Positions 40,982 through 63,108 of a stretch of 64,000 nucleotides of DNA are shown piece by piece. The notes beneath the pieces were generated by a model that made no database searches, was not told the DNA's origin, and was given only the letters and a program-made list of their open reading frames with translations. How positions within the stretch are numbered: the stretch's first letter is position 1; each line of letters opens with the position of its first letter. Origin of the DNA: Candidatus Hydrogenedens sp. (GTDB lineage Bacteria > Hydrogenedentota > Hydrogenedentia > Hydrogenedentales > Hydrogenedentaceae); NCBI GenBank assembly GCA_049968235.1, contig JBMFRC010000001.1, positions 320,001 through 384,000 on the forward strand, read 5' to 3'. Made by a program: the position numbers and the translations under genes.

Positions 40982-41039
40982 TTTTAATCTCCTTTCCAAA
41001 TAAGGTTAAAATTTTATTTTTATCGATATGAGTTCTTTA

Positions 41040-45542: not shown

Positions 45543-45666
45543 AAAAATTACTCCTTATCTTGTTTTTTCACATAAGCAATAAAAATTTCTTCTAACGATG
45601 GAATAGCGATATTAATTATCTCTCCACCTTGTTGTTGTATTTGTTCTTTTATGTTTGTGTTATTCC

Positions 45667-46478: not shown

Positions 46479-46860
46479 CCATGTGCAGTTTTATTTGTTC
46501 TGCGCGGGACTGTATTAGTTCTAATAACTGGCTTAATGAAAAGTTAAGGTGCTTTGCTATAACCAATAGAGAATCTATATGTTCATATATGACGCGGTAT
46601 CGTTCTTCATCGGAAAATAATGTTCGTATAGTAGCCACATAAGTACCGGCTCCAGGACGGGTATAAATCATCCCTTGATTTTCCAGTTCCCGATATGCTT
46701 TGGATACTGTATTGGGATTGATTAACAGTTGTTGAGCCAATGTGCGAACAGGAGGTAATTCATCTCCATTTTTCAAAGAACCTGTAGCAATTAGGTATTT
46801 GAACTGCCGAACAATCTGTAGATATATTGGCGTTCCATCTTGAGTATTAATTCGAATCAT
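46456..46860 (-). CDS. GntR family transcriptional regulator, short YtrA-like subfamily
   Basis: wHTH LPPVRTLAQQLLINPNTVSKAYRELENQGMIYTRPGAGTYV. 134 aa. First gene of the ABC transporter operon, as in ytrA operons. Confidence 0.8.
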   Translation of the reverse strand: MIRINTQDGTPIYLQIVRQFKYLIATGSLKNGDELPPVRTLAQQLLINPNTVSKAYRELENQGMIYTRPGAGTYVATIRTLFSDEERYRVIYEHIDSLLVIAKHLNFSLSQLLELIQSRAEQIKLHMDEEKDHE

Positions 46861-49338: not shown

Positions 49339-49376
49339 CTTTTAACTCCTTCTTCTAATATTTATTTTTTCAATCA

Positions 49377-51284
49377 TTATGGCACAAACAGAGTTCGTAT
49401 TTCTTTTTTTGTTAATCCTGCATAATCTGTAACCACAAATGTAATTGTATGCGTTCCGGAGGGTAAATCTTCATCTTGTTCCCAACGTAGTGTTCCACGA
49501 GGTCCATCATATTCACTCAGTAGCCATTTCTGGTCGCAGAAAATTTCTGCCCGTGCTATACCACTTCCTATATCGGAAATAGAAGCAGATATAGGAGGTC
49601 GTTTTGTAAGTTGTTTTATGTCTTTATTAATATTAATGGAAATATTTGTGATTTGTGGAGGTTCATCATCTCTTATTAATGCGAAAGTGCCCCAATCAGA
49701 TACAGTGGCAATAACAGAGTCTCCCCTCTTTTGAGAATCTACTCTTGTCCATGAAGAACTTGTTTTACGGTATAAATGGATTCGCTCTTGCGGTTGGACA
49801 TTCTCTCGAATCTGTATTTTCATCTGTACCGCTTCTGCCATAGGCACATTATACGGTTCTATTTTCCATATATTTGAGGTAATTACCATGCCCTGAGGGA
49901 CTTTCTGTGCAGAGACAGGGGAGATGGAAAGCCAGAGGATTCCGTATGGTGTATTGGACGGTATATCTATCTGAAAATCATTCAATACAATGGGATTTAT
50001 TTTATCTTGTGCCTTAACTGCATATATAGTCTTTTCCCATGGAGGTATAGATGGATGGGACACTCGAAAAGTATATTTGCCTGATGCAGGAGGTTCCCAT
50101 GGAAGTTCGTAAATATTATTTGCCCGCTGGATAGGTTTTAGTAAGATAGACTCCTGTTCTGAGATGCATGTAACCTCAGGTATTTCCTTCGCAGATGTTT
50201 GTGCTAATAGAATTTCTAATACAAGGATAGACGGTAAATAGTGAATAGAAATATCTGTTTTTTCTATCTTCTTGTGTAAATCATTTGCAGGAACATCTGT
50301 GATGTATAGAGGAATCTGTGTTTTTTTCCTATCAAAGTCCTCTACTTCTATCTGGATATGCTCCTCATCTTTTATAGAAATCCAATCTTTTCGAGCCTGC
50401 TTGTAATTCTGCGATTGATTTCCCTGCCATTGCCACAATAACCAATAAATTGGATTTGAGATGTAAGGATAAAAAGCGACCACAGCATCCCGATAGGTAT
50501 TGTAATCAATGCGGTCTTGCTGAATAGTCGATAAGATGTTTTCGCTATTCTTTAATGAAATTCGGTAAGGTCCCAATTTACAATTGCCGGATTCGGGGTC
50601 GATGGTTGAAATACCAAATCCTATTGCACCCTGTGCATTAATAACGATAGGAAATGTTGTCTTTTCGTTAATAGGTATTTCTAGAGGAAGACAGCGACCA
50701 TTGATGGTTGCGTGAATACTTCCGGGGATAACAAGTAGAGATGTTATTTGAGGTTTATTACGGTCAATCCAGTGAAAACCATATTCCCATGGATTTAGAC
50801 ATGTAATTCCATCTTTTGTGCGAAGTTCAAAGTGTAAGTGTGGTGCTTTTGTTCCAGACTGACCTGTATATGCGATTATAGTCCCTTTTTTTACAATAAG
50901 TTCGTTGTCTTTGAGCATTAGGTCTACGGTGAAGGATTCTTTCTGATGTTGGACCTTTTGCAGATAAGACTGATATGGTTCTGCAAAAGAAAGTAGGTGT
51001 GCATAAATCCCCATAATTCCCGAATGAAATTGAATATATAACACGCGACCATAACCCCAGGGACCGCAACGCATCCTTGTTACATAGCCATCATCTATGG
51101 CATAGACCGGTGTACCAACAACAGCATGATAGTCCACGCCCATATGAAAACGACCATCTCGATGCTCGCCAAAGGAAGAAGTAGCCATCAAGTCTCCTTT
51201 CAAAGGGAGAACAAAAGATTCTTTGGCAGAAAGGGAATTGATTATTATAAAAATAAATGCAATAAATGGAGTTATGAACTTCAT
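49377..51284 (-). CDS. M23 family (LytM-type) metallopeptidase with long C-terminal extension
   Basis: Signal peptide. HMGVDY ... D, GQSGTKAPHLHFEL M23 zinc-ligand motifs. ~430-aa C-terminal beta-rich extension. Confidence 0.75.
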   Translation of the reverse strand: MKFITPFIAFIFIIINSLSAKESFVLPLKGDLMATSSFGEHRDGRFHMGVDYHAVVGTPVYAIDDGYVTRMRCGPWGYGRVLYIQFHSGIMGIYAHLLSFAEPYQSYLQKVQHQKESFTVDLMLKDNELIVKKGTIIAYTGQSGTKAPHLHFELRTKDGITCLNPWEYGFHWIDRNKPQITSLLVIPGSIHATINGRCLPLEIPINEKTTFPIVINAQGAIGFGISTIDPESGNCKLGPYRISLKNSENILSTIQQDRIDYNTYRDAVVAFYPYISNPIYWLLWQWQGNQSQNYKQARKDWISIKDEEHIQIEVEDFDRKKTQIPLYITDVPANDLHKKIEKTDISIHYLPSILVLEILLAQTSAKEIPEVTCISEQESILLKPIQRANNIYELPWEPPASGKYTFRVSHPSIPPWEKTIYAVKAQDKINPIVLNDFQIDIPSNTPYGILWLSISPVSAQKVPQGMVITSNIWKIEPYNVPMAEAVQMKIQIRENVQPQERIHLYRKTSSSWTRVDSQKRGDSVIATVSDWGTFALIRDDEPPQITNISININKDIKQLTKRPPISASISDIGSGIARAEIFCDQKWLLSEYDGPRGTLRWEQDEDLPSGTHTITFVVTDYAGLTKKEIRTLFVP

Positions 51285-52435
51285 TACTTCTTATTTTTTT
51301 TTGGTGCTGTTGGCTTTGTTGTGGTTTGAGCAGGCACGGATTTCTTTACTGCTGGGGTTTTATCCTGACGGGATAATTTTTCTAAAATGGGGTCAAAGGC
51401 GAGGAATATTTTCACTTTTTCCGAATCATTTAGATAAGGTTTACAATATTCAAATATCTTTTCATCCGTTTTTTGTTCAATTAAAATATTTTTAATTTTT
51501 TCTTTAACCTGTTCAAAGTTAACCTTCTCTTCTGCTTCGCATTCTAACAATTTAAACAAATGCCATCCTAATGAACTTTTTATGACAGGGCTCAGGTCTC
51601 CCGGTTTCATGGCAGGTAGAACCTGTGTAAAAAACGGAGGCAATGCTTCTGTGGGTATCCATCCCATATCGCCTCCTTTCTGACGGTCCGGTGCTTCGGA
51701 AACAGAACGGGCAACCGCGTCAAAACTTTCTCCTGCCTTTATTCGTGCTAATGCTTTCTCTACTTCTTTTTGTGTTTCCTGCCATGCTTTTTCATCTGCC
51801 GTTTTTGCATTGGGCTTTGGTTGTCGAAATATTTGTTTTAAATGCACGCGTGAGGGTTTCATGAAAAGGTCCGGGTTACTTTCATAAAACTTTTTCGCTT
51901 CATCATCTGTTACGGTTATCTTATTCTCATTTACAAGGGCTTGTCTCATCTTTTTTAATATCAGATTTTTACGGGTTCTTTCGCGAAAAGATTCTATTGT
52001 CTCTCCTTTGGCTTTTAAGATGTCCTCCATACTGGGAGGGTTCTTTCCTGCCTTTTTTGTATCCTCCTGAATTTCCTTAATTTGTTCATCCACTGCTTTT
52101 TTTACCTCATCCTCAGTTACAGAATATTTTCGTTTTAGAGATTCCTGATACAAAATTTCGCGTTGGGCTAAATTGGTAATGCAACGGATGGCAATATGGA
52201 TACGGTCCTCATCTTTTACATCTTTTTGTCCCGTTCCCGCAACATATTCCAATAGTTCCAGATGATACCTCATTAAAAATTCTTCTTTCGATATGGGCGT
52301 ACCGAGAACCAAAGCCACAGGTCCATCCGGGACAGATTTCTCTACGATATCCATCCTAGACAGGTCAGGAGCCTGAGCAGGTAAATATGAAATCCAGAGG
52401 ATAGAGGTAAGCACAAAAAGTAATTTGCGAAACAT
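51284..52435 (-). CDS. SurA/PrsA-like periplasmic chaperone with PpiC-type (parvulin) PPIase domain
   Basis: Signal peptide. Parvulin region GDLSPVIKSSLGWHLFKL. Lys-rich C-terminal tail. Overlaps the M23 gene by 1 nt. Confidence 0.65.
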   Translation of the reverse strand: MFRKLLFVLTSILWISYLPAQAPDLSRMDIVEKSVPDGPVALVLGTPISKEEFLMRYHLELLEYVAGTGQKDVKDEDRIHIAIRCITNLAQREILYQESLKRKYSVTEDEVKKAVDEQIKEIQEDTKKAGKNPPSMEDILKAKGETIESFRERTRKNLILKKMRQALVNENKITVTDDEAKKFYESNPDLFMKPSRVHLKQIFRQPKPNAKTADEKAWQETQKEVEKALARIKAGESFDAVARSVSEAPDRQKGGDMGWIPTEALPPFFTQVLPAMKPGDLSPVIKSSLGWHLFKLLECEAEEKVNFEQVKEKIKNILIEQKTDEKIFEYCKPYLNDSEKVKIFLAFDPILEKLSRQDKTPAVKKSVPAQTTTKPTAPKKNKK

Positions 52436-52462
52436 ATAATTATCCTTATTTTAAAATTATGT

Positions 52463-52798
52463 TCAATCCTGTGTTTTATCCACTGGTTTTTCTGTTTCAG
52501 GGGTAATTTCAGTTTGTGTTGTTTTTATAATCAATAATCCGTAGTAAATCAAAATACCTGAGATGCCATAAGTAATAACAAAAATCAATGCACATAAAAT
52601 AACCATTGTGCCTATAGCAATGTAATATCCACTCAATTGCATCATCAAAAATACAAATAGGGCTATGAGAGTGAAAAACAATCCGGCAATAGTTGCAATA
52701 CGATTTGGCTCCAGATGAACAACAACCTGTTTTTTTGTATCCAGAAGGGGTCTTACCTCGGGATAATCCAAATTATGAAGGTTATTTATATTCTTCAT
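52463..52798 (-). CDS. Small 2-TM membrane protein
   Basis: Hydrophobic ORF co-oriented with the SurA-like gene. Confidence 0.35.
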   Translation of the reverse strand: MKNINNLHNLDYPEVRPLLDTKKQVVVHLEPNRIATIAGLFFTLIALFVFLMMQLSGYYIAIGTMVILCALIFVITYGISGILIYYGLLIIKTTQTEITPETEKPVDKTQD

Positions 52799-53130
52799 CT
52801 TCCGATTTGTACCTTTTTATTCATTCTATATAAATATACAAAATTCAGACCCCCATTTACATTTTTAAAATTACCATTAATCAATCACTTAGAGGTAGAA
52901 AGTATTAACAAATTGATAGCTAAAACAAATAATTACCAGTAAAGGCAATTCATAAATTGTCTCAAAAGGGTATAGATGAATACATATATATCAAATGATA
53001 ACCTTACATATTCGTTCTATGTCTTTTTATCCAATCCACATATCCCATTTATATAATCTCTCATTTCTACTTACATAGATAGTATTAATTATCTGATTTA
53101 AGGTTAAAAAATATTAATTTTGTAAAGTTT

Positions 53131-53826
53131 TCATTGGGATTTATATGATGATAAAAAATCCTGATAGGCTGTAAGGATTTGCTCCTCGTTCATAGGTGCA
53201 ATAATCATACGGACTGTAGTAGAAGCAGTCTGTCCTGTTTCCAATGTTTTACCAAACAGTGAGAAATACATGGAGTAATGTGTATTCCCTACTGGTGGAG
53301 TTAATATAGCAAAGCAGTTATCTTTGCGTGCCATCTGAACCACGGCAAGATTTGTCTCTTTATTGATGCGATAAATAATTGGCTCCTTAAAGGAGGGACG
53401 TATTGTCCAATCTACAGGATTAGGTGGAATAGTCCAGCGTCCATCACGAATAATCGAAATAGATTGTTCGTCCCTTGGGAAAGCCTGCCAATCTCCCGCA
53501 TCCACAGGAGTGGGAAGAAACTTATTGCCTTCCTCCGTTTGTGCATAAACGTAAGATTCTGGAAATTTATCGGTCAGGTAAGAGGAAAGAAATATTTCAA
53601 AATCCGGCAAATTTTGTTTTGCTTCAATTGAGATATGAAGGTCTAATGTGTAAGGATTTATCCATTGATATACAGAGGACAGGACAAAAGGATGTGCTTC
53701 GTCTGCTTCCCACTTTACTTTTATTGTTTTCTCATCTACCCATTCTGTTGAACTTTGCACACTCCGCATACTTTCTCCGAAGCGTTGGTTGGTTGCAAAT
53801 ACACGGTAAAAATTTAACAAGCCCGG
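53131..53826 (-). CDS. Hypothetical protein; start unclear (no ATG/GTG; the frame stays open to ~54053 and overlaps the upstream gene)
   Basis: ORF table uses TTG at 53820. The frame is open for another ~75 codons upstream with no canonical start. Confidence 0.35.
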   Translation of the reverse strand, partial: PGLLNFYRVFATNQRFGESMRSVQSSTEWVDEKTIKVKWEADEAHPFVLSSVYQWINPYTLDLHISIEAKQNLPDFEIFLSSYLTDKFPESYVYAQTEEGNKFLPTPVDAGDWQAFPRDEQSISIIRDGRWTIPPNPVDWTIRPSFKEPIIYRINKETNLAVVQMARKDNCFAILTPPVGNTHYSMYFSLFGKTLETGQTASTTVRMIIAPMNEEQILTAYQDFLSSYKSQ

Positions 53827-53990
53827 TAGTGCAGACGGATTGGTAGAAATTTCAAGTTCCGGTGAAATAGAGGAGAACGGGACAAATCCGATAGACCTCC
53901 CTTCAAAACGGAATGTGCCTTTCAGTGCTCCTGTATCTATAAGATATTCACCTGGAGTTTTATCTGAAGCAATGAAATATGGTTTTTCTT

Positions 53991-55295
53991 CTATTGATTT
54001 TGTTGATGATATTTTTCTTTTCGTGCAGAGTTAAAAAGTTCTTTCATTTTGTAGTGAACATAGGGCTGTTTTGCCGCATCCTCTTTTCCTTTCGCGTGAG
54101 CGACCCATAATTCTAAATCTGTGGGACAATAGAGAACGCTGTGCAAGTTAACATTGACCATTGCCACTGCTTTGAGGATCTCTAATGCGATATTCTGGTC
54201 AATCTTGCCGTAATTCTCTTTTATTCGTGTAGCCATTCCTTTATAACGATGGTCATAGGAATTTGAACCATAGGGCATATTTGGTGCATTGGCACAGGTC
54301 TGTAAAGAGCGAATGGTTGGATCCATTGCTTCATCGGCACGCATAACGGCATTCTCAATGGGAATTGCATATTCGACAGTCTCGCGCGGGTCATTATCTG
54401 TAAATATTGCTACATGATGGGCACACGTTTCATAAACCAGGGCTCGGTTTTCATCTCCATCCGCAATCACATAGTTATAACCCACGGTATGCCGTGCTTC
54501 GAGAACAATTTCTGTTACCTGGTCCAAAGTAGATGCTTCTTCCAATATCTTGCGTAGAAGAAATTCAAGTGGGATACCATCAATGCGTCGGTCTTTATTC
54601 GTTGCTCCAATCTGTGCAATGGATACTTTGCGGTTATTCATGCCGGAGAGAACACCAATTGCACATGCATAACCGACAGAAATAAATGAATTCAATCCTT
54701 GTGGTTCATAACAGAAGGTAACCGCTGTATCCTGAATTCCTGCTTCCATAATCCAATCAAAATTTCTACCATGATACATCTTCCCATCAACAGTAGCTTT
54801 ACCCCACACGGCAAACGAACTACAACCCCGTTCTGTTATAACGGAAACAACATGAATACGACGCAAATCCTGAAGATTTACACCGGCACCATCAGCAATC
54901 CCCTCCAGTTCACGAGAATACCGTAATGGAATATGTGGCGAACATAATCTCCATGTAACATCCAATATCAACTTTGCTGCAAACTTTGGTAACCCTACTT
55001 CTTGCTTCGCCAGTTCTAATAATTCGTCAAATCGTGCAAGACTACGGTGAATAACATCTTTCAAGAGAACACCTCGTTGAAAACCCATCTCATACGGGGT
55101 CCCTTTCAAGTGAATAACCTTCGTCCCTTCAATTTCCTCCAAGAAAGCTTTTTGTATATCTACTGCTTCATGGGGACCGCGCGTAGGATAGAGCCAGAAG
55201 TAGAATCCAGCACCTAAAACCAGCACAACAAAAAGAATGGGAAGTATAAAACGAATTTTCTTTTTCATGGGAAATTCTCCAATAACAATTTTCAA
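53991..55295 (-). CDS. Ntn-hydrolase, peptidase C45 / acyl-CoA:6-APA acyltransferase-like family protein
   Basis: N-terminal TM/signal. Candidate autoprocessing nucleophile context ERGCSSFAV. Confidence 0.5.
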   Translation of the reverse strand: MKIVIGEFPMKKKIRFILPILFVVLVLGAGFYFWLYPTRGPHEAVDIQKAFLEEIEGTKVIHLKGTPYEMGFQRGVLLKDVIHRSLARFDELLELAKQEVGLPKFAAKLILDVTWRLCSPHIPLRYSRELEGIADGAGVNLQDLRRIHVVSVITERGCSSFAVWGKATVDGKMYHGRNFDWIMEAGIQDTAVTFCYEPQGLNSFISVGYACAIGVLSGMNNRKVSIAQIGATNKDRRIDGIPLEFLLRKILEEASTLDQVTEIVLEARHTVGYNYVIADGDENRALVYETCAHHVAIFTDNDPRETVEYAIPIENAVMRADEAMDPTIRSLQTCANAPNMPYGSNSYDHRYKGMATRIKENYGKIDQNIALEILKAVAMVNVNLHSVLYCPTDLELWVAHAKGKEDAAKQPYVHYKMKELFNSARKEKYHQQNQ

Positions 55296-55421: not shown

Positions 55422-58400
55422 TTATACATCCTTAATGATAGAAATAGGGATTGTTAGATTGTTAGCAATATCGGGAATATCATTTCTATATGTAAAAAGG
55501 ATTATCTGTTGTCCTTCTCCCAATGCTTTCAATGTTTCCAGAGATTGAATCAATTGGGGATAGTCATAAGACACAAAAGGGTCATCTAACAATAACGGAA
55601 TTGGTTCTTTGAGAAAATGAGGAATTTTCATAAGGGCGACACGCATAGCAAGATATGCCTGTTCCTGAACAGAGGGATTTGAAGATAATTCTTCCAGAGG
55701 TATGGGGTTCTCTGTTTGTGCAGGAATAACTTTCAATGTCAGGTCCTGCTCTACAAGCACACCTGTATATTTGTACTTCGTTAAATGTATCAGCAAACGA
55801 CTGACTTCATTTTGTAAAGGCAATGCAATTTTATGATACCGATATGTGGATAATTGCTGTAATACCGATATTGCTGATAATACACTCTCCTGTTCGTATC
55901 GAAGTATTCTCCATTGAGTTTCATAATAATATTTTTCTTCAGCAATTTCATTTAACGGTCGCAATTTGTTTGTCAATGTTTCCAACTCTGATTGTAGAAT
56001 CTGTATATCCTTTTGTATTTGTTCTACTTCGTTTTCTGTTTGCTCAATAAGTAGTTGCAATTGTTCTTCATCTTCGGCGGGGACTGATGGGACAAAATCT
56101 TGTGTTTGTTTTTCCAGTTCCTCTATTGTGCCATCATTCAGCAATTGTTGAAGTTGCAGTTCGGTTTGTTTAATTCGTGAAAAGATAGCCTGTGCTTCTT
56201 CGGCAAGGGCATATTTGTTTTTCCATTCGGAGATACTGCTTACTCCTGCCAGTTCTAATATCTCCTGAATCTGTTTCTGGTTTTGAGATAGTTCCTCATC
56301 CACTTTTTGCAGTTGTTGATTTAAATCCAATCGCTTTTTCCGAAGCTCGGATACCTTTGTTTTTAGCCCACAGTACATTTCTTCTGCACGATAATATGAA
56401 CGGAAAGTATCCTGTGTTAAAGTTTCCCCTGGTTGAAGCAGTCCGGATTGAACTAAGTCATGTTCTATCCGGCTAAGTATCTCTTTTTGAATTTTATTGT
56501 AAATATCCTTTGTATATTCTTCTTTTTTCGTTATAGTGTATGTTAATTGTTGATATTGGTTCCGGAGGTCCCAGAGCCTGCGGTGGTACATTCTTGCTTT
56601 TTCCTGCAATTCAAATACCTTTCGCCGATTTTGCTCTATTTTATCCTTATCTTCCAGAGATAGACCTGCTTGTTCAAAAAGATTTTGTATCTCTTGATAA
56701 AGGTCGTAGGTTCGGGTCTGGTTAATCGTAAATAGTTCCTCTGCTTTACGAACCTGTGTAGATAAATCTCCCTCGTTTTTTAACCAGGCACAGTATTCGT
56801 CATAAAGCCCCTGCAATTCGCGCACATGCTGTAAATTGGCTTTATTAAGTAGTGCTGTTATTGGATGCTTATCAATATATTCGAAGGTAACTATTTTCTG
56901 AATTTTTTCTTTCAATTGCTTCAGGAAAACATCGATTTCTTTCAGAGTTCGCTTATTATTGATATAAGAACTCACAAAATATAAAAAAGCCAATCCTACT
57001 GCACTGGCAAACCATAGAGATTCCTTTTTATGCATTGTTATAAACAGATAAATGAGTAAAATATCCAGCAAAAAACAAAGCGTCCCTAATACCAGGTCCA
57101 CAGGTTGTCGGGAACGAATTTGTAGTTTTAATACCTCTGCTTCTTCCAATTGTCTTTCTAATTCTTGCTGTTCTTCTTCCGGTTTATCTTTATATTTCAA
57201 ATAATCATCTACAAGCCCTGCAAAGTCATTTATATCATCAAATAATTCCCGATACGGTTGCGTTTGTTGTTGAACACGGGTATATTCTTTTCTCAGTTCA
57301 TTAAGTTGCGATTCGCTTTTATGTGTTTCCTTCAAAGAACTTTTATACATATCAATGGCAAAATCGGTTTTGGAGTAGAACATATCATCTTTTTGTATTA
57401 CCTCTGGAAGTTCCGAAACAATTTTTTCAACTTCCTGAATATGTTCGTTTACCTTCTCTCGTTGATTGTGTAGTTCTTTCAACACCTCCTCATTACTGTG
57501 AATATGTTTCAAATATTCCTCATATTTATCTTGATAATCCTTAATATAATCAATAGGGATAAAGGTAGAATGACGCAGTTCTAACTCAAGTTCATTGATT
57601 TCCCCAGAGATGTTCTCAATCTCATTTTGCAATTTCTGCTTTTGCATTTCCGCATGATTGATAGCCATCTCCGTTTGAATAACATATACATTCTGGTCAA
57701 CTGGAAAATTTCTAAAATTGGAGTATGAAAAGGAACGTCTAGTCAGTTCATTTAACTTGTCTCGTAAGGCTTTTGCATCGTTCTTTTTTCTCCAGAGCGT
57801 ATATTGACGGGCATATTGTAATTTATCTTGCAGTTCCTTATATTTCTGTTGAAGACTACTCAGTTTCTCCTTATGTTGTTTCAGAAATAATTTCTTCTCG
57901 CATATTCTTTCAAAACTTTCCTTTACCTGCTCATATTCCTCTGATAACCTTTCTATTTGTTCCGATATCAGGTTATAGGGGCGTTTATAGGTACGTTCTG
58001 TTCCGATGGATTGCAAATATTCCTGAAAATCGGTAATTATGGTATTTACAGATTGTTCCGTTGTCCCTGTATCTATCAAACACTGAAGATGTTCCTTTAC
58101 TCTGTTCCCGTGGGTAAAGGAATTCAAACTGTCTATTGTCTTCTGTGAAATTACAGACACTCCGGAGAACATTTCACGAGTCAAATCCAGATGTTCATTT
58201 ATAAAAGCAGGTTCTCCATTTGGATATACAGGAACTGTATCTGTTATATCATTTGCATCCATCCCTTCATATATTCTTAATGATGGTTCAGGTCCAAATA
58301 CTCGATGAAGATGTATCAGTTTCCCCGTATTCAGGCGATAAACAATATTTCCCCGATAATCCGAAGTATACCATGGTGTATATTTATAATAATTTTCAGA

Positions 58401-58580
58401 AAAGGATGCATTTTTCTTTTTGGAAGTTTTTTGCCCAAATAACATATCCAGCATAAACTGGAATAATGTATTTTTCCCATTCTCATCTCTGACAAAAATT
58501 ATCTGGAACCCCTTCTCAAATTCAAGGGGAATCTTTTGTAGTTTCCCGAAACCATAGATATGTCCCTTTATAAATTCCAT
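55422..58580 (-). CDS. YhaN/SbcC-like AAA ATPase with long coiled coils and two internal TM helices; Walker A appears degenerate
   Basis: N-terminus IYGFGKLQKIPLEFEKGFQIIFVRDENGKNTLFQFMLDMLFG matches the YhaN family head, but it has VRDENGKNT where GxNxxGKST is expected. Central hydrophobic segments LVLGTLCFLLDILLIYLFI and FASAVGLAFLYFVSSYI. C-terminal LLLDDPFVSYD Walker B/D-loop. Confidence 0.65.
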   Translation of the reverse strand: MEFIKGHIYGFGKLQKIPLEFEKGFQIIFVRDENGKNTLFQFMLDMLFGQKTSKKKNASFSENYYKYTPWYTSDYRGNIVYRLNTGKLIHLHRVFGPEPSLRIYEGMDANDITDTVPVYPNGEPAFINEHLDLTREMFSGVSVISQKTIDSLNSFTHGNRVKEHLQCLIDTGTTEQSVNTIITDFQEYLQSIGTERTYKRPYNLISEQIERLSEEYEQVKESFERICEKKLFLKQHKEKLSSLQQKYKELQDKLQYARQYTLWRKKNDAKALRDKLNELTRRSFSYSNFRNFPVDQNVYVIQTEMAINHAEMQKQKLQNEIENISGEINELELELRHSTFIPIDYIKDYQDKYEEYLKHIHSNEEVLKELHNQREKVNEHIQEVEKIVSELPEVIQKDDMFYSKTDFAIDMYKSSLKETHKSESQLNELRKEYTRVQQQTQPYRELFDDINDFAGLVDDYLKYKDKPEEEQQELERQLEEAEVLKLQIRSRQPVDLVLGTLCFLLDILLIYLFITMHKKESLWFASAVGLAFLYFVSSYINNKRTLKEIDVFLKQLKEKIQKIVTFEYIDKHPITALLNKANLQHVRELQGLYDEYCAWLKNEGDLSTQVRKAEELFTINQTRTYDLYQEIQNLFEQAGLSLEDKDKIEQNRRKVFELQEKARMYHRRLWDLRNQYQQLTYTITKKEEYTKDIYNKIQKEILSRIEHDLVQSGLLQPGETLTQDTFRSYYRAEEMYCGLKTKVSELRKKRLDLNQQLQKVDEELSQNQKQIQEILELAGVSSISEWKNKYALAEEAQAIFSRIKQTELQLQQLLNDGTIEELEKQTQDFVPSVPAEDEEQLQLLIEQTENEVEQIQKDIQILQSELETLTNKLRPLNEIAEEKYYYETQWRILRYEQESVLSAISVLQQLSTYRYHKIALPLQNEVSRLLIHLTKYKYTGVLVEQDLTLKVIPAQTENPIPLEELSSNPSVQEQAYLAMRVALMKIPHFLKEPIPLLLDDPFVSYDYPQLIQSLETLKALGEGQQIILFTYRNDIPDIANNLTIPISIIKDV

Positions 58581-59740
58581 TCCGGGGGAACCTCACATGT
58601 TTCAACGGTAGGAATTTTTAGATTTGCTCCTCCAGCAATTCTTGCGGTTAAATGTCGGACTCGTTTTGCAATACTGACAGCGGAGGTATTCGGTGCACAT
58701 TTTTGTTGTTCCGTTACCTGCTTAAAAAATTCAGATAGAACGGTAATCTCTCGCAAATCTTCTGCATTTTCAAATCCTTCTATTTCTCCATCAAAACTCC
58801 ATGTAATAAATAGATTTTCTTCCTGAATAGATATCATTGTTTCCGGGATGCCATTTAGAAGGGAAGGAGAAATTGTTCCACTGAAACGGAGATGAACAAC
58901 ACAGGGTTTTTGCAAATTTGTCAATTCATTTCGTAACTTCGTGTGAAGTCCATCTTCATTTGTAAACAAAGACATATCTATATTGATAAGAGCATAAAAA
59001 TTTTTCTGTAAAGACATATGTTCTACATGGGAAACTTTCCATTGATTATCATCCGATTGAAAGCGAATACCTAAAACCCCAAAAGGAGGAGTATCATCCA
59101 TACTTATAGGGTCGGGAATACCACAACAACACGCCGTCAATTGCGAAGTATTGTAAAATTGTTTGAAACTGTGTCCTTTCCCTACCCCGATATATGAGAT
59201 AACATCCGGGACCTTCTCAAACCATCTTGACAATTCCCTTTTATCGTTAAACATAGGCAATTCATAAGATAGAAGAATATGATTCCTGCCATCATAGCCA
59301 GTCGGTAAATTAAGTTCCGCAAAATCCCCTACCTTCCTATTATCTCCTGCTATTGCATAAACAACAATCGGGGTCTTATTCCCTTCCCACCTGTTTGTTG
59401 TTTCGGAATTCATTACTATTACATTTTCGGGAAAAGTCTCTAATATGTAGGGAGAATATTTTGTGATAGGGTCTGATTCGCCGGGAATAATAATGACTGG
59501 AACAGGTTTAATTGCTTCACATCGCTCAAACAGGAATTGAAGGGTTTGTTCCGTTACATATTCTGCATCCAGCAAATTACCGGTTATGAATAAGGCATCT
59601 GCTTTATACTCAAATACTTTACTGACAATTGCATCGAGTAATTCCCTCTGTCTTCTTCTTCGTTCTTGACCATAGTGTAGGTTTAAGGAGGAAAAAAAGG
59701 GCTTGTCTAAGTATACATTTGCGGTATGTAAGATGAACAT
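58568..59740 (-). CDS. SbcD/YhaO-like calcineurin-fold phosphoesterase homolog with substituted metal-binding motifs (likely inactive)
   Basis: Aligns with SbcD motifs I-III, but ILHTANVYLD replaces ILHTSDWHLG, GNLLD replaces GDVFD and PGESD replaces GNHD. 13-nt overlap with the downstream ATPase gene. Confidence 0.6.
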   Translation of the reverse strand: MFILHTANVYLDKPFFSSLNLHYGQERRRRQRELLDAIVSKVFEYKADALFITGNLLDAEYVTEQTLQFLFERCEAIKPVPVIIIPGESDPITKYSPYILETFPENVIVMNSETTNRWEGNKTPIVVYAIAGDNRKVGDFAELNLPTGYDGRNHILLSYELPMFNDKRELSRWFEKVPDVISYIGVGKGHSFKQFYNTSQLTACCCGIPDPISMDDTPPFGVLGIRFQSDDNQWKVSHVEHMSLQKNFYALINIDMSLFTNEDGLHTKLRNELTNLQKPCVVHLRFSGTISPSLLNGIPETMISIQEENLFITWSFDGEIEGFENAEDLREITVLSEFFKQVTEQQKCAPNTSAVSIAKRVRHLTARIAGGANLKIPTVETCEVPPEWNL

Positions 59741-59765: not shown

Positions 59766-60716
59766 TTAAGAATATATTATATCAATTTGCGGTTCCTGCT
59801 TTGCTATGGCATCAGTAAAACCCCTATATCGCCAATATCGGAATACTCGGCGATACATTCGGAGAAGTAATTTAGAATCTTCTGGAAGTTTTAAGCAAAA
59901 ACGGTGGTAGTAAGGAATAAGCAGGGCATTGATAATTCGTGTAGTATAAGGAAAATAAAGTTTATAATTAACGACGATATGATAGTCATTAGGAAACAAT
60001 CGCAGGTAACAGCCCATTGAATAACCCCGACGGTAATGATATCTGCACATATCCAGATATGAACTTCCTTTCCAAAGCCAACAAAGAGCCTGATTGTCAA
60101 TATGAAGTTTACAACCTACTTGCGAGAGCCTTTTTACCAATTCCACTTCTGCGAATTCCGGGAAATAAAATGATTTGTTAAATGTTCCACTTTGAAGAAT
60201 AAGGTCACGAGGGATACTCATGTTATAGAGAGAGAAATGGGAAGGAGTTATTTGTGTAATTTCCTCCATTGAAGGTGGTTCATCCTCTGGCAAGAACCAG
60301 GGTGTTATGCTTTTTGAAGAGAGTCGCGGATGCAAAAGTAACGCGCCTCCGATACAGGCTTTCCCCTCATATGCGTATTGGAGCTGGACATGCCTTTGGA
60401 TCCAACTATTACTGGGCAATACCTCCGGTTGACTGCACAATACCCACTTTCCTTTCGCCTCGTGCAATGCTAAGTCCCATGCTTGTATCATTGACTCTCC
60501 CCCATGTGGAATATAACGAACAATCAACGGAGACCCTTTTGACAAAGAAGCAACTGTCTTTCGCGTTTCTTCTGAGGAATTCGTTTCAACAATAATCCAC
60601 TCAAATTGTGCTAAAGGATAATCCTGATGTTCCAGATGAAAAAACCATGGGGATAAACACCACGACAAATTATTTCCTACTAACAGCACGCTTGCATGGA
60701 TTTCATTCGTTGACAT
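59766..60716 (-). CDS. Glycosyltransferase family 2-like (GT-A) protein, divergent
   Basis: N-terminal pattern SVLLVGNN...EWIIVETNSSEET resembles the GT2 IIPTYN...EIIVVDDGSTD region. Confidence 0.35.
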   Translation of the reverse strand: MSTNEIHASVLLVGNNLSWCLSPWFFHLEHQDYPLAQFEWIIVETNSSEETRKTVASLSKGSPLIVRYIPHGGESMIQAWDLALHEAKGKWVLCSQPEVLPSNSWIQRHVQLQYAYEGKACIGGALLLHPRLSSKSITPWFLPEDEPPSMEEITQITPSHFSLYNMSIPRDLILQSGTFNKSFYFPEFAEVELVKRLSQVGCKLHIDNQALCWLWKGSSYLDMCRYHYRRGYSMGCYLRLFPNDYHIVVNYKLYFPYTTRIINALLIPYYHRFCLKLPEDSKLLLRMYRRVFRYWRYRGFTDAIAKQEPQIDIIYS

Positions 60717-60825: not shown

Positions 60826-63108
60826 ATGTCGCAAATAGCAAGTAAGGTTTCGGAGTTCCGACGCTTCCCTTTTTGGGGAACATTACTCGGGGGTATTTTC
60901 CTGTTACTTTTGATACGTATTTATTGGGACCCTATGCTGGCAGCCAGTTTAGGTAAAAGCGATAAAGAAGATATATGGGCAAACAAACAATATTCCGTTT
61001 GGGGTCCTATATGGAAATATGGGTTTGACCGTATCGGGAAGGGAGAAATTCCGCACTGGAATCCGTATCAACTTTGTGGACAACCCTACCTTGTGGACAT
61101 ACGTACATCTTTGTTTCAACCCTTGCATATACTATTTTGGCGAATGGACTTTGCACATGCCTATCAATGGTATATTTTCCTTTCCATGTCCCTTTTAGGT
61201 ATCGGTTTTTTAATATGGGGTAGAATTTTAGAGATTCCTTATCCTGCTTTAATACCCGGACTTGTATCTGTGGTATTTTCGGGACCTGGAATATGTGTTC
61301 AAATGTCGTTACCTTTGTTAAGTGGTTCTGTGTGGCTAATTTTTCTACTAAGTGGTATGGTATATTTCTTTGAAAACCATACACCACGCAGTTTTCTCAT
61401 CTTATTGTTTATATGGACCGCATTGATACTATCTGGAAGTATTGAATGCATATTTGCAGGTCTCCTTATGCTCATCCTTTTCCCTTTTATCTTTCGCAGT
61501 TTCCCGACACTTTCCATAGAAAGGAAATCTTTATCGGTAATTTTCAAAATTATAGTTGTTTTGATACTGGGAATAATGGTAAGTGCATTTGCATGGTTTC
61601 CTTTTATATCATGGCAGATATATACAGATGTACACTGGAGCCAATTTCTTAGTTTTCCTTTATCGGCTCATTTTCCCGAAACATTCTCTCTCGCTTTTTC
61701 TCAAATCTTTCTCCCTATATGGGCATGGGACCTTCCAAAATTACCCGTTTTATATCCCGGATTAATATGTTTCGTATTTATTTTTCCCGCATTTTTTGAC
61801 CGTGAACTTCGTTCTATCGTATGGTTTCATGGGCTAATCTTGTTATTTTTCTTCCTTCTATTTTTTATAAACCTTAACCTGGCACGAATACTTCAACAGG
61901 GAATGTTAATTCTTGTTGCAATTTCTTTCTCAACATTGGCAGGGATAGGCTTTCACCGATTGCTATTAAAAGGTCGGGATTTAAGTTCTCCATATGTATG
62001 GGTTTCGGGTATCTTTGTTTTTTTATTGCTATTAGCCCTCATTTTAATCGCTAATCCATGGATAAAGGGTGTATCCATTTTATTACTCTTTCTCCTTATC
62101 CCTGCAACAATCATCCGTATACCCAAAATAAATTCTATCCTTTGCATCTTAATCGCTCTGTTAAGTTTCATCGAATTGTATTATTTACTTCGTCCTTTTC
62201 TACCTGAAAGTTATATCCCCGTTATTGAAAAAAAAGATGTTTATTCCGAATTCGTCAGACAGCTCCGCTATCAAACAGGCACAGGAAGAGGTCTGATTGT
62301 CCCGGAATCGAACTCAATACTCTGGTCGGAAAACCTCGGGATGTATTATCACTGGCAATTGGTGAATGGAACAGAACTACCCACAGATAAATATGCACAA
62401 TTATGGATGAAATCCCTTTCAAATCAAACACAGGAAAAAACAGAACTATTAACAAATCCGTTAACAACAATCAGTGGTGTTCAGTGGGCATTTACTACAA
62501 ATATGTCAATAGATAACGATAAGGGGAAAAATTTAAAAACCTGGCGAAAAATGGAGCAAATCTACTTTGTTGATATTTATGAAAATACCCAACCTATACC
62601 GCGATGTTTCTGGGTACCCCACTACCGAAAAGTCTCTTCTATGGAAGAGGTCTTAAATATTTTGACACATAGTAACTTCTCTCCATTTAAAGAATGCGTG
62701 ATACAGTCAGATGTTCCGATTTCCTACGACAAAAAAACTGCTGATATACTTCCCTTAACACCGGAACAGGATGCAGATTCTTCCGCAAAGGTAGTAACTA
62801 CCAATATCCAGGAGGAAAACTCTGAATATATCTCTATACAGATAAAAGCACCTAAGGAAGGTTTCTTAGTGCTTTTAGACACATACAACCCGGGCTGGAA
62901 AGCATTTGTCGATGGAGAACTTACTGAAATTTTTAGAACAAACGGTATATTTAGAGGTGTTCCCATACCGGGAGGGGTACATCAGGTTGTATTCAAATAT
63001 ACAAGCCCTGGCTGGGACGCAGGGAGAATAATTACATTCGTGGCTATTCTTTTAACTCTATCAACACTACTCATCGAAAAAGTTTTCAATAAAAGCCAAA
63101 CCGCATAA
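60826..63108 (+). CDS. YfhO family polytopic membrane protein (membrane glycosyltransferase-like)
   Basis: Many TM helices. N-terminal IPHWNPYQLCGQPYL motif typical of YfhO. Large C-terminal extracytoplasmic domain and final TM. Confidence 0.55.
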   Translation: MSQIASKVSEFRRFPFWGTLLGGIFLLLLIRIYWDPMLAASLGKSDKEDIWANKQYSVWGPIWKYGFDRIGKGEIPHWNPYQLCGQPYLVDIRTSLFQPLHILFWRMDFAHAYQWYIFLSMSLLGIGFLIWGRILEIPYPALIPGLVSVVFSGPGICVQMSLPLLSGSVWLIFLLSGMVYFFENHTPRSFLILLFIWTALILSGSIECIFAGLLMLILFPFIFRSFPTLSIERKSLSVIFKIIVVLILGIMVSAFAWFPFISWQIYTDVHWSQFLSFPLSAHFPETFSLAFSQIFLPIWAWDLPKLPVLYPGLICFVFIFPAFFDRELRSIVWFHGLILLFFFLLFFINLNLARILQQGMLILVAISFSTLAGIGFHRLLLKGRDLSSPYVWVSGIFVFLLLLALILIANPWIKGVSILLLFLLIPATIIRIPKINSILCILIALLSFIELYYLLRPFLPESYIPVIEKKDVYSEFVRQLRYQTGTGRGLIVPESNSILWSENLGMYYHWQLVNGTELPTDKYAQLWMKSLSNQTQEKTELLTNPLTTISGVQWAFTTNMSIDNDKGKNLKTWRKMEQIYFVDIYENTQPIPRCFWVPHYRKVSSMEEVLNILTHSNFSPFKECVIQSDVPISYDKKTADILPLTPEQDADSSAKVVTTNIQEENSEYISIQIKAPKEGFLVLLDTYNPGWKAFVDGELTEIFRTNGIFRGVPIPGGVHQVVFKYTSPGWDAGRIITFVAILLTLSTLLIEKVFNKSQTA

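What the first reader, a model, noticed from the sequence alone, without database searches (positions are those of the whole stretch)
55422..59740. YhaO/YhaN (SbcD/SbcC-like) pair with substituted active-site motifs and a membrane-embedded coiled-coil ATPase
The phosphoesterase aligns convincingly to SbcD motifs I-III, yet the canonical metal-ligand positions are substituted (D to N, H to Y, GDxxD to GNxxD, GNHD to PGESD). The partner ATPase has a YhaN-type head with a shortened Walker A lacking the first Gly and the Ser/Thr, plus two hydrophobic helices in the middle of the coiled coil. Inference: a membrane-anchored, possibly non-catalytic derivative of a DNA-end-processing complex, perhaps repurposed for envelope or defence functions. 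It is co-operonic with a GT2-like gene and divergent from a YfhO glycosyltransferase-like gene.
Basis: partly seen in the sequence, partly recalled or inferred. Interest (0 to 1): 0.65.

Follow-up and report, generated by a model that had tools for sequence, protein, structure and literature searches.

The report
Catalytically dead membrane-anchored Mre11-Rad50-like pair
Two overlapping genes of a Candidatus Hydrogenedens genome encode a membrane-anchored relative of the Mre11-Rad50 (SbcCD/SbcEF) DNA-end-processing machine that has lost the residues needed for both its nuclease and its ATPase yet is still preserved by selection, so it most likely now acts as a non-enzymatic scaffold; this is a neat natural pseudoenzyme but not a new kind of system.

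Summary
Window 58568-59740(-) encodes a 390-aa protein with an Mre11/SbcD fold. Window 55422-58580(-) encodes a 1052-aa SMC/Rad50-like protein. They overlap by 13 nt and belong to the YhaO/YhaN (SbcF/SbcE) family.

Most relatives, including most Hydrogenedentota, have canonical nuclease ligands and ATPase motifs. Here the ligands are N8, Y10, N55, E88, S89 and K188. The Walker A is VRDENGKNT and the signature motif is LSSNPS.

A bootstrapped tree shows two steps. The nuclease site died once, at the base of a Ca. Hydrogenedens-containing clade. The ATP site died later, in a nested subclade that includes the window. Both genes remain under purifying selection (dN/dS about 0.12).

The two hydrophobic helices (residues 496-516 and 522-541) form the apex of the coiled coil. 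They are a family-wide trait (118 of 120 homologues), not a novelty of this variant.

A GT2-like gene lies directly upstream in about half of the Hydrogenedentota loci, including catalytically intact ones, so that linkage predates the decay. Independent degenerate pairs occur in another Hydrogenedentota lineage and in Melghirimyces algeriensis.

Best reading: an ATP-independent, membrane-tethered structural complex. A defence role is not supported. An envelope role is suggestive only.

The parts
58568..59740 (-). PE gene: a 390-aa Mre11/SbcD-fold (YhaO/SbcF-family) pseudo-nuclease
   Evidence: ORF. The clade profile hits SbcD/Mre11 chains at E about 1e-3. The AF2 model (pLDDT 70, pTM 0.64) gives Mre11/SbcD as the top 35 Foldseek hits, with E down to 4.7e-11. 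dN/dS is 0.12.
59705..59728 (-). Phosphoesterase motif I, HTANVYLD (canonical H-x-x-D-x-H-L-D). The metal ligands are changed: D to N8 and H to Y10.
   Evidence: N8 is invariant in the clade. D occupies this position in 141 of 161 family rows and H occupies position 10 in 129 of 161.
59567..59581 (-). Motif II, GNLLD (canonical GDxxD/E). The bridging Asp is changed to N55.
   Evidence: This is the same type of change as the yeast nuclease-dead allele mre11-D56N (PMC2625443). The position equivalence to D56 is from my own knowledge.
59471..59485 (-). Motif III, PGESD (canonical GNHD). The changes are N to E88 (variable among orthologues) and catalytic H to S89 (S/T/A among orthologues).
   Evidence: Compare the P. 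furiosus Mre11-H85S entry 3dsd and mre11-H125N.
59171..59182 (-). Motif V, GKGH (canonical GHxH). The first His is changed to K188. The second His (H190) is kept here but varies (N/Y/Q) among orthologues.
58571..58615 (-). Clade-specific conserved C-terminal tail of the PE, IPTVETCEVPPEWNL. It is absent from canonical relatives. AF2 confidence is low here and its role is unknown.
55422..58580 (-). ATPase-like gene: a 1052-aa YhaN/SbcE-family SMC/Rad50-like protein with degenerate nucleotide-binding motifs
   Evidence: ORF. Its full-length relatives P0021-P0025 carry Pfam AAA_27, AAA_23 and SMC_N. The AF2 model shows a Rad50-type head, long antiparallel helices and an apex hairpin. Foldseek hits are Smc5/6, condensin, Rad50, MukB, JetC and LmuB. 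dN/dS is 0.117.
58467..58493 (-). Degenerate Walker A, VRDENGKNT (family consensus GxNESGK[ST]T)
   Evidence: Orthologues have NEKNT, QDRNS and NEKDT, so the second Gly or the Lys is lost as well.
56958..57095 (-). Hydrophobic helical hairpin at the coiled-coil apex. TM1 is residues 496-516, the HKKES turn is 517-521 and TM2 is 522-541. It is the predicted membrane anchor and takes the place of the Rad50/SbcC zinc hook.
   Evidence: The Kyte-Doolittle peak is 2.65. The segments are 76% and 65% hydrophobic and 5% and 0% charged, against 28-33% and 30-37% in the arms. AF2 gives helix 467-516, a turn and helix 519-564. There is no CxxC. A hairpin is present in 118 of 120 homologues.
55659..55688 (-). 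Degenerate ABC signature motif, LSSNPSVQEQ (family consensus LSxGTxDQ)
55563..55598 (-). Walker B and D-loop, PLLLDDPFVSYD. These are retained in the window protein but vary among orthologues (LLDNP, LLEDP, ILNDP).
59766..60716 (-). Co-directional GT2-like gene 25 nt upstream of the PE. The position of its DxD motif reads Q-P-E in this clade.
   Evidence: Pfam Glycos_transf_2 scores 25.7 bits against a cut-off of 23.3. Alignment to chondroitin synthase DCD. Orthologues next to canonical pairs keep DxD. Synteny is shown.
60826..63108 (+). Divergent YfhO-like (GT-C type) membrane protein. It belongs to the conserved four-gene block in Ca. Hydrogenedens.
   Evidence: Pfam YfhO E 7.6e-10. Synteny is shown.

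Best explanation
The two genes encode a YhaO/YhaN (SbcF/SbcE)-family complex. This is the branch of the Mre11-Rad50/SbcCD superfamily in which the Rad50-like subunit carries a hydrophobic helical hairpin at the coiled-coil apex instead of a zinc hook.

In this lineage both catalytic centres have decayed, in two steps. The nuclease metal site was lost once in the ancestor of a clade containing Ca. Hydrogenedens. The ATP-binding site (Walker A and signature motif) was lost later in a nested subclade that includes the window organism.

What selection still keeps is the architecture: the Mre11-like fold with its capping domain and C-terminal region, the Rad50-like head fold, arms of about 300 residues, the apex hairpin, and the translationally coupled gene pair.

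The most likely mode of action (inferred, not shown) is a static, ATP-independent complex. The hairpin inserts in the cytoplasmic membrane, and both arms run back into the cytoplasm. The head with its pseudo-nuclease partner would sit up to about 40 nm from the membrane. There it would act as a tether or scaffold that still binds the ancestral ligand (DNA or a partner protein) without cutting it or cycling on ATP.

It is co-transcribed with a GT2-like gene. That arrangement is older than the catalytic loss.
For: Shown:
- Fold and family. The PE model matches only Mre11/SbcD in its top 35 hits, and the profile hits SbcD/Mre11. The ATPase model matches SMC/Rad50-class proteins. Relatives carry AAA_27. 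A Bacilli locus shows Metallophos, then AAA_27, then an OB+HD (YhaM-like) gene.
- The canonical state is the norm. In the family tally, D8 is 141/161, H10 129, D55 128, N88 114 and GHxH 121-130. About 20 Hydrogenedentota loci have DHDNHDHHH with GPNEQGK[ST]T, KGTVDQ and LLDDP.
- Stepwise, nested loss. In the NJ tree the PE-dead clade has bootstrap 100 and the double-dead subclade nested inside it has bootstrap 100.
- Motif-specific relaxation. Walker A, signature and Walker B pairwise identities are 0.62, 0.53 and 0.72 in the dead subclade against 0.90, 1.00 and 0.95 in the sister clade. Whole-head identity is unchanged at 0.69 against 0.71. Orthologues have even lost the P-loop Gly or Lys.
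- Purifying selection. dN/dS is 0.12 for both genes, similar to the neighbours at 0.075 and 0.144.
- Hairpin at the apex.
- The equivalent laboratory changes (Mre11 D56N, H125N) abolish nuclease activity but keep the complex with Rad50 (PMC2625443).

Inferred: membrane insertion, complex formation, and the tether or scaffold role.
Against: There is no experimental data for this protein or this phylum.

The window protein itself still has the P-loop G35-K36, the Walker B DD and the D-loop. It also keeps PE residues H154 and H190 and the second-shell acids D12, D58 and D90. Residual nucleotide or single-metal binding therefore cannot be excluded.

N8 and N55 are invariant rather than drifting. 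This could mean a remodelled pocket that is still functional.

Membrane insertion of the hairpin is a hydropathy and AF2 inference. B. subtilis SbcE-YFP was reported as polar foci and an insoluble central domain, not as a demonstrated membrane protein.

The ligand of the proposed tether is unknown. A crude charge/pI comparison showed no shift.
Confidence: 0.62

Rival explanations
1. Envelope-linked module. The pair works together with the adjacent GT2-like and YfhO-like (GT-C) proteins, for example as a membrane scaffold or regulator of a glycan-modification pathway. DNA is no longer, or never was, its substrate in this phylum. This overlaps with the best explanation and differs only in the partner.
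For: The GT2-like gene is immediately upstream on the same strand in all Ca. Hydrogenedens loci. It is also upstream in L012-L017, L020, L032 and L033, where PE identity to the window is only 23-29%, while the outer flanks differ.

YfhO recurs divergently in L016, L020, L024 and L030.

The first Asp of the GT2-like DxD is replaced (Q/K/I-x-E/D) in Ca. Hydrogenedens loci, all of which have a dead PE.

A GT2 paired with YfhO is a known glycosylation pair, as in CsbB/YfhO and GtlA/GtlB (PMC5836110).
Against: About half of the Hydrogenedentota loci with enough upstream sequence lack the GT2-like gene (L001, L002, L019, L021, L023, L031, L034, L035).

No such neighbour is seen outside the phylum.

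The association exists with catalytically intact pairs too, so it does not explain the decay.

Gene order within one phylum can simply be inherited.

The only experimental data for the family point to DNA repair and competence.
Confidence: 0.22
2. The pair is still an enzyme. The substituted residues form an unconventional but active metal site (Asn can ligate metals) and a non-canonical P-loop, so the complex still processes nucleic acid.
For: N8, N55, D58, D90 and H154 are invariant or nearly so in the clade. The window ATPase retains G35-K36, the Walker B DD and the D-loop.
Against: Five of the eight canonical ligand or catalytic positions are replaced, and positions 88, 89 and 190 vary freely among orthologues.

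D-to-N in motif II and loss of the motif III His are classic nuclease-dead changes (3dsd title).

Orthologues at 57-66% identity have lost the P-loop Gly or Lys (P0016, P0018, P0020) and all have lost the signature Ser-x-Gly.

Motif conservation has dropped to background.
Confidence: 0.08
3. Anti-phage defence system related to Lamassu, Wadjet or other SMC-plus-nuclease systems.
For: There are weak PADLOC hits of the ATPase to LmuB (E 1e-13, C-terminal half) and to JetC. LmuB and JetC appear among the structural matches. In L006 a prophage-like segment abuts the YfhO gene.
Against: The PE has no PADLOC hit, and no LmuA- or JetABD-like partners are present.

The pair is vertically inherited and syntenic across a phylum, which is unlike patchy defence islands.

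The window context is housekeeping and envelope genes.

The similarity is at the generic SMC level.
Confidence: 0.04
4. Decaying pseudogenes or an annotation artefact with no function.
For: The catalytic motifs are lost in both genes. Pfam scores fall below the gathering thresholds.
Against: Intact full-length ORFs are found in at least 12 genomes and metagenomes spanning 46-100% identity. dN/dS is about 0.12 with dS about 1. The overlapping start/stop arrangement is conserved. The models are well folded.
Confidence: 0.02

Closest known systems
B. subtilis SbcE/SbcF (YhaN/YhaO), Krishnamurthy et al. 2009 (PMC2811018)
   Same: The nuclease-like gene directly precedes the SMC-like gene. The PE is SbcD-like. 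The SMC-like protein has arms of about 300 residues, no CxxC hook, and a conserved hydrophobic central domain preceded by a conserved Pro (RQP here). Relatives carry Pfam AAA_27.
   Different: Nuclease ligands, Walker A and the signature motif are lost. The neighbours are a GT2-like gene and a YfhO-like gene rather than yhaM. The host belongs to the phylum Hydrogenedentota rather than Bacillota. No phenotype is known.
Mre11-Rad50 / SbcCD
   Same: The PE has the Mre11/SbcD nuclease-plus-capping fold. The partner has the Rad50-type ABC head and an antiparallel coiled coil. The genes are adjacent.
   Different: The zinc hook is replaced by a hydrophobic hairpin. The metal ligands and the ATP site are degenerate. 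Sequence similarity is only marginal.
Laboratory nuclease-dead Mre11 alleles (yeast D56N, H125N; P. furiosus H85S)
   Same: The same kinds of substitution occur at what I take (from my own knowledge) to be the same motif positions: motif II Asp to Asn, and loss of the motif III His. Such proteins still assemble with Rad50 (3dsd).
   Different: Here the changes are natural, fixed for a long time, combined with further ligand losses and, in this subclade, accompanied by loss of the partner's ATP site.
Other inactivated calcineurin-like phosphoesterase scaffolds (B subunits of DNA polymerases alpha/delta/epsilon; Vps29). This comparison is from my own knowledge.
   Same: A metallophosphoesterase fold is kept as a protein-protein scaffold after the metal ligands are lost. 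There are weak echoes here: Pfam DNA_pol_E_B at E 0.098 and Vps29 at Foldseek ranks 38-39.
   Different: Those are different branches of the superfamily with different partners. None is paired with an SMC-like protein.
Lamassu LmuB / Wadjet JetC
   Same: They are SMC-like ATPases with long coiled coils. There are weak profile and fold matches.
   Different: There are no LmuA/LmuC or JetABD partners, no defence-island context and no membrane hairpin in those systems. The similarity is generic to the SMC class.
CsbB/GtlA (GT2) with YfhO/GtlB (GT-C) glycosylation systems, for the neighbouring genes only (PMC5836110)
   Same: A GT2 gene is adjacent to a YfhO-family membrane protein.
   Different: The GT2-like protein here is most similar to soluble EPS-type GT2s (EpsD, sub-threshold). 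Its DxD is altered in this clade. The YfhO match covers only the C-terminal 76 residues.

Membership tests
Mre11/SbcD nucleases (calcineurin-like metallophosphoesterases) | Phosphoesterase fold with a capping domain | tested here: met
   The AF2 model gives Mre11/SbcD as the top 35 Foldseek hits, with E down to 4.7e-11 and TMt up to 0.66 over about 350-400 columns.
Mre11/SbcD nucleases (calcineurin-like metallophosphoesterases) | Motifs I-V with the di-metal ligands and catalytic His (D, H, D, N, H, H, H, H) | tested here: not met
   The window has N8, Y10, N55, E88, S89, H154, K188 and H190. Five of eight positions are replaced, in alignments that place canonical residues in relatives.
Mre11/SbcD nucleases (calcineurin-like metallophosphoesterases) | Score above the curated family thresholds | tested here: not met
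   Pfam Metallophos scores 16.6 bits against a cut-off of 21.5. NCBIfam sbcd models score 12-19 bits against cut-offs of 78-480.
Rad50/SbcC/SMC ABC-type ATPases | Bipartite ABC head joined by a long antiparallel coiled coil | tested here: met
   AF2 secondary structure and topology. Foldseek hits to Smc5/6, condensin, Rad50 and MukB.
Rad50/SbcC/SMC ABC-type ATPases | Walker A, GxxxxGK[ST] | tested here: not met
   The window has VRDENGKNT. Orthologues have lost the second Gly or the Lys.
Rad50/SbcC/SMC ABC-type ATPases | Signature motif (LSGG; LSxGT in this family) | tested here: not met
   The window has LSSNPS. The motif is variable within the subclade and invariant in the sister clade.
Rad50/SbcC/SMC ABC-type ATPases | Walker B and D-loop | tested here: inconclusive
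   The window keeps LLLDD...YD, the Hydrogenedentota form of the motif. Orthologues show DN, ED and ND.
Rad50/SbcC/SMC ABC-type ATPases | Zinc hook (CxxC) or hinge at the coiled-coil apex | tested here: not met
   There is no CxxC anywhere in the protein. The apex is a hydrophobic helical hairpin.
YhaO/YhaN (SbcF/SbcE) family | Adjacent PE-then-ATPase genes, with an AAA_27-type head in the ATPase lineage | tested here: met
   The genes overlap. There is a continuous chain of homologues to proteins carrying PF13514 (AAA_27) above threshold. The window protein itself is below threshold at 17.9 bits against 22.
YhaO/YhaN (SbcF/SbcE) family | Conserved hydrophobic central domain instead of a hook | tested here: met
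   118 of 120 homologues have a mid-protein hydrophobic segment or pair of segments. This matches the description in PMC2811018.
YhaO/YhaN (SbcF/SbcE) family | Role in double-strand-break repair and competence; interaction of the two proteins | not testable with these tools
   Only genetic, yeast two-hybrid and localisation data from B. subtilis exist.
YhaO/YhaN (SbcF/SbcE) family | Actual membrane insertion of the central hairpin | not testable with these tools
   The only evidence is hydropathy and AF2 geometry. No TM-topology predictor or experiment was available.
Lamassu (LmuB with LmuA) | LmuB-type SMC together with an LmuA effector (and LmuC) | tested here: not met
   There is only a partial LmuB hit (E 1e-13, residues 534-1042). 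The PE and the GT2-like protein have no PADLOC hit.

The most novel reading that the evidence does not exclude
The YhaO/YhaN (SbcF/SbcE) family as a whole may be a membrane-tethered structural machine whose core job does not need catalysis. That would explain why the nuclease site, and sometimes the ATP site, have been lost independently in several phyla: the Ca. Hydrogenedens clade, another Hydrogenedentota lineage (L030), Melghirimyces algeriensis, Schlesneria and some Clostridia. In Hydrogenedentota the pair would be physically and functionally coupled to a GT2/YfhO glycan pathway. That would give a first example of an Mre11-Rad50-type architecture recruited to the cell envelope rather than to DNA ends.
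Probability: 0.12. Interest if true: 0.72.

Novelty: new variant of a known kind. Interest (0 to 1): 0.45.

Why it matters
Mre11-Rad50/SbcCD-type complexes are normally thought of as ATP-driven nucleases. This natural, long-lived variant has lost both activities but keeps the whole architecture under purifying selection. That shows the architecture has a use of its own.

The stepwise order (nuclease first, ATPase later) and the independent repeats in other lineages give a natural separation-of-function series for the barely studied SbcE/SbcF family. One repeat is in a cultured organism, Melghirimyces algeriensis DSM 45474, whose close relatives are canonical.

The phylum-wide GT2-like neighbour is a concrete and testable lead to what this membrane-anchored branch actually does.

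It does not by itself open a long-standing question, and pseudoenzymes are common, so the interest is moderate.

Tried and rejected
- The promoter and terminator consensus scan of 53.8-61 kb gave counts within or close to chance (29 against 23 +/- 4; 9 against 4.7 +/- 2.5). It was uninformative about operon boundaries.
- Net charge and pI of the PE and the ATPase heads, as a crude probe for lost DNA binding, showed no difference between dead and canonical groups.
- I looked for a CxxC hook in family members that lack the hairpin (alphaproteobacterial forms of about 1,160 aa) to show the two apex modules as alternatives. None has CxxC.
- A single-sequence search of the GT2-like protein against PDB sequences found nothing. 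The profile search was needed.
- The literature search for 'AAA_27' returned only noise. Searches for membrane-anchored SMC-like proteins and for pseudoenzyme with Mre11 returned nothing relevant.
- NCBIfam has no model that names this family. Even canonical relatives stay far below all cut-offs.
- The defence hypothesis was rejected for the reasons given under the rival explanations.
- The pseudogene hypothesis was rejected on dN/dS.
- The flanks beyond GT2-PE-ATPase are not conserved between lineages, so no larger conserved operon exists.
- The first tree attempt timed out and was redone with a faster distance routine.

Full report
OBSERVATION. The ATPase start codon lies inside the last codons of the PE, giving a 13-nt overlap. 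A GT2-like gene ends 25 nt upstream on the same strand. A YfhO-like gene is divergent, 109 nt further on. A 100%-identical protein in the public collection is labelled Candidatus Hydrogenedens sp.. Both proteins fall below the curated family thresholds: Metallophos at 16.6 bits against 21.5, and AAA_27 at 17.9 bits against 22. No NCBIfam model comes near its cut-off.

WHAT THE PE IS. A profile of 12 orthologues (46-100% identity, alignment A1) finds solved SbcD/Mre11 chains at E about 1e-3. The alignments pair HTANLY with HTSDWH, GNLLD with GDLLH, PGESD with PGNHD, and ALGKGK with ALGHIH. An AlphaFold2 model (pLDDT 70, pTM 0.64; the last 70 or so residues are unreliable) has Mre11 or SbcD as every one of its top 35 Foldseek hits, with E down to 4.7e-11 and coverage of both the nuclease and capping domains. 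An exhaustive profile search found 2,589 relatives. Among the best 150 plus the clade itself, the canonical residues dominate: D8 in 141 of 161 rows, H10 in 129, D55 in 128, N88 in 114, H89 in 99, and the GHxH histidines in 121 and 130. The window's N8, Y10, N55, E88, S89 and K188 are therefore a derived state, not an alignment shift. H154 (motif IV) is kept. H190 is kept in the window but varies among orthologues. N8 and N55 are invariant in the clade, whereas positions 88, 89 and 190 drift. D-to-N in motif II and loss of the motif III His are the changes used in the laboratory to make nuclease-dead Mre11 that still binds Rad50 (D56N and H125N in PMC2625443; Pfu H85S, 3dsd). The equivalence of positions is from my own knowledge of the motifs.

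WHAT THE ATPASE IS. Homologues form a gradient: eleven at 49-80% identity, one at 30% and one at 23% with full-length coverage, then many Clostridia proteins of 620-660 aa. The more distant ones carry Pfam AAA_27, AAA_23 and SMC_N. The family consensus is Walker A GxNESGK[ST]T, signature LSxGTxDQ, Walker B hhLD[ED] and D-loop YD. The window and its closest relatives (at least 57% identity) instead have VRDENGKNT and LSSNPS. Three of those relatives have also lost the second P-loop Gly or the Lys (NEKNT, QDRNS, NEKDT). Within this subclade the pairwise identities of Walker A, signature and Walker B are 0.62, 0.53 and 0.72, no better than the protein average of 0.67-0.69. In the sister clade with intact motifs they are 0.90, 1.00 and 0.95. 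Whole-head identity is the same in both, 0.69 against 0.71. Constraint has therefore been lost specifically at the nucleotide site and not on the head fold. The AF2 model (pLDDT 73) shows a Rad50-type bipartite head and long helices. Its Foldseek matches are Smc5/6, condensin, Rad50, MukB, JetC and LmuB.

THE HYDROPHOBIC HELICES. Residues 496-516 and 522-541 are 76% and 65% hydrophobic and 5% and 0% charged. The coiled-coil arms are 28-33% hydrophobic and 30-37% charged. The Kyte-Doolittle peak is 2.65. AF2 draws one helix from 467 to 516, a two-residue turn, and a returning helix from 519 to 564, so the hairpin is the apex of the antiparallel coiled coil. There is no CxxC. This does not look like a buried heptad core, and a membrane hairpin is the best reading, although it remains a prediction. 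It is not special to this protein. 118 of 120 homologues have a hydrophobic segment or pair at the midpoint, including fully canonical ones and the short Clostridia forms. The 2009 paper on B. subtilis SbcE (YhaN) already described a conserved, hydrophobic, insoluble 'central domain' with a conserved proline and no CxxC (PMC2811018). A Bacilli locus in my set has Metallophos, then AAA_27, then (after an inserted two-component pair) an OB+HD gene with the YhaM architecture. This ties the family to yhaO-yhaN-yhaM.

ORDER OF EVENTS. A scan of species-representative genomes returned 80 loci with organism names. For each one I tabulated the PE ligands, the ATPase motifs, the hairpin and the neighbours.
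- About twenty Hydrogenedentota loci are fully canonical (DHDNHDHHH; GPNEQGK[ST]T; KGTVDQ; LLDDP) and have the hairpin.
- L001, L004/5, L010 and L011 have a dead PE with an intact ATPase.
- WIN, L006, L007/L009 and L008 (Ca. Hydrogenedens terephthalaticus) are dead in both.

An NJ tree of the ATPases with 100 bootstraps gives (L001,(L004,((L010,L011),(L007,(WIN,(L006,L008)))))), with every node at 94-100. So there was one loss of the nuclease site, followed by one later loss of the ATP site. Against the closest relative (L006), dN/dS is 0.120 for the PE and 0.117 for the ATPase, with dS about 1. The GT2-like gene gives 0.075 and YfhO gives 0.144. These are maintained proteins, not pseudogenes.

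RECURRENCE. The same thing has happened elsewhere.
- L030, another Hydrogenedentota lineage nested among canonical ones, has HTSDVR, GNLFD and PGDRD in the PE and no recognisable Walker A, signature or Walker B.
- Melghirimyces algeriensis DSM 45474 (L040) has PGKSD, LSDETDRRI and ILHNS, while its sister Kroppenstedtia (L037, bootstrap 100) is canonical. Its ATPase has no Pfam hit at all.
- Schlesneria (L055/56) has HAANLQ, GNTFD and PGKLD with an intact P-loop.
- L032 and a Clostridia MAG (L059) are partly degenerate.
- In the representative set, 31 of 161 rows have Asn at position 55.

CONTEXT. The block of divergent YfhO followed by GT2-PE-ATPase is present in every Ca. Hydrogenedens locus, while both outer flanks differ. 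The GT2-like gene is also directly upstream, on the same strand, of canonical pairs in L012-L017, L020 and L033, and of the partly degenerate L032. YfhO recurs in L016, L020, L024 and L030. Loci such as L001, L002, L019, L021, L023, L031, L034 and L035 lack the GT2-like gene. Nothing further out is conserved. The linkage is therefore old in the phylum, incomplete, and older than the catalytic decay. The GT2-like orthologues next to canonical pairs keep a DxD (LFLDLD, LFLDDH, LFLDAE) and score E 1e-26 to 1e-35 against EpsD. The Ca. Hydrogenedens ones read LCSQPE, LCSKPE or LCSQFD, and the window protein scores 9e-14. This is suggestive of co-evolution but does not prove inactivity. The rest of the window is ordinary chromosome. 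PADLOC gives only generic LmuB and JetC similarity for the ATPase and nothing for the PE.

MECHANISM. Shown: the fold, the family, the loss of catalytic residues, the motif-specific relaxation, purifying selection, the apex position of the hairpin, and the stepwise and recurrent history. Inferred: the hairpin inserts in the cytoplasmic membrane. Both arms (about 300 residues, roughly 40 nm if extended) return to the cytoplasm. Neither protein has a signal peptide-like N-terminus. The head binds a PE dimer as in Mre11-Rad50. The assembly then works without ATP turnover or cleavage, as a tether or scaffold. Whether the thing held is DNA (the ancestral ligand) or the neighbouring glycosyltransferase machinery cannot be decided here. 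I give the static-scaffold reading 0.62 overall. The envelope-partner version gets 0.22 as a distinct rival, residual catalysis 0.08, defence 0.04 and pseudogene 0.02.

COMPARISON AND NOVELTY. It works like, and descends from, SbcE/SbcF (YhaN/YhaO). It fails the defining catalytic features of both the Mre11/SbcD nucleases and the Rad50/SMC ATPases, so it should be filed as a degenerate member of the YhaO/YhaN lineage and not as a nuclease or an ATPase. I found no paper describing such dead variants or the GT2 linkage, but the searchable library is incomplete. Verdict: a new variant of a known kind, of moderate interest (0.45).

LIMITS. The NJ tree uses a simple distance correction. dS is near saturation for all but the closest pair. 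TM insertion, complex formation and loss of activity are predictions. The loci come mostly from MAGs, some with doubtful taxonomic labels.

Noticed in passing
window 60417-60443 (GT2-like gene 59766-60716, minus strand): The position of the GT2 DxD motif reads Q-P-E (VLCSQPEVL) in the window. Other Ca. Hydrogenedens orthologues read K-P-E or Q-F-D. Orthologues next to catalytically intact PE/ATPase pairs keep D-x-D, D-D-H or D-A-E. The glycosyltransferase-like gene may therefore have changed or lost activity in the same clade that lost the nuclease site.
   Followed up: partly
L030 (Hydrogenedentota MAG CTOTU18300) 6501-10604; L040 (Melghirimyces algeriensis DSM 45474) 6483-10438; L055/L056 (Schlesneria) PE genes; L059 (Clostridia MAG): There are independent, convergent losses of nuclease ligands in other lineages, and in L030 and L040 of the ATPase motifs too. 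The same D-to-N change in motif II recurs. L040 is from a cultured strain whose sister taxa are canonical.
   Followed up: partly
window 58571-58615 and 59108-59134 (PE gene): The PE has a clade-specific conserved C-terminal tail (IPTVETCEVPPEWNL) and a conserved Cys-rich patch (ACCCGIPDP; C204 invariant). Both are absent from canonical relatives. No function could be assigned.
   Followed up: no
L010, L013-L015, L019, L020, L023, L024, L034 (record titles): Several MAGs labelled 'uncultured Nitrospirales/Nitrospiraceae bacterium' carry PE-ATPase genes that group with those of Hydrogenedentota. L010 has the complete Ca. Hydrogenedens four-gene block at 48% PE identity. The deposited taxonomic labels are probably wrong or generic.
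   Followed up: no
L006 662-5149 (next to the YfhO gene): A prophage-like segment (Phage_capsid_4, Portal_Mu) abuts the YfhO gene in this close relative. It is absent from the window and the other loci, so it is probably an unrelated insertion.
   Followed up: no
window about 40000-46500: This is a low-GC stretch (0.32-0.34 against about 0.38 elsewhere). It holds ORFs of 780, 265 and 150 aa with no Pfam match and a short ABC_tran-like ORF of 174 aa. It may be horizontally acquired or fast-evolving.
   Followed up: partly
window 20173-25416 (minus) and 11846-14179 (minus): There is a 1,747-aa protein with seven PASTA repeats plus GLUG, Cohesin and EF-hand motifs, and a 777-aa PASTA/Cohesin/CarboxypepD_reg protein. 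These are unusual large PASTA-repeat proteins.
   Followed up: no
window 6155-9601 (plus): This 1,148-aa ORF combines multihaem cytochrome c motifs (NapC/NirT, c7 and c3 types) with a C-terminal cytochrome b561-type membrane domain. It looks like a fused electron-transfer module.
   Followed up: no
window 48313-55295 (minus strand, downstream of the pair): This is a run of co-directional genes with an envelope flavour: a C45-family autoproteolytic acyltransferase/hydrolase, a 229-aa protein with no family, a small 111-aa protein with hydrophobic stretches, a SurA-like PPIase, an M23 peptidase and an NAD-dependent sugar epimerase. The run is not conserved downstream of the pair in other loci, apart from an AAT/C45-like gene in L006.
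   Followed up: partly
L064, L078-L083 (Alphaproteobacteria): The family members of about 1,160 aa in Alphaproteobacteria have intact motifs (LTHH at the H-loop position). They have neither a mid-protein hydrophobic hairpin nor a CxxC hook, so a third, unknown kind of apex exists in this family.
   Followed up: partly
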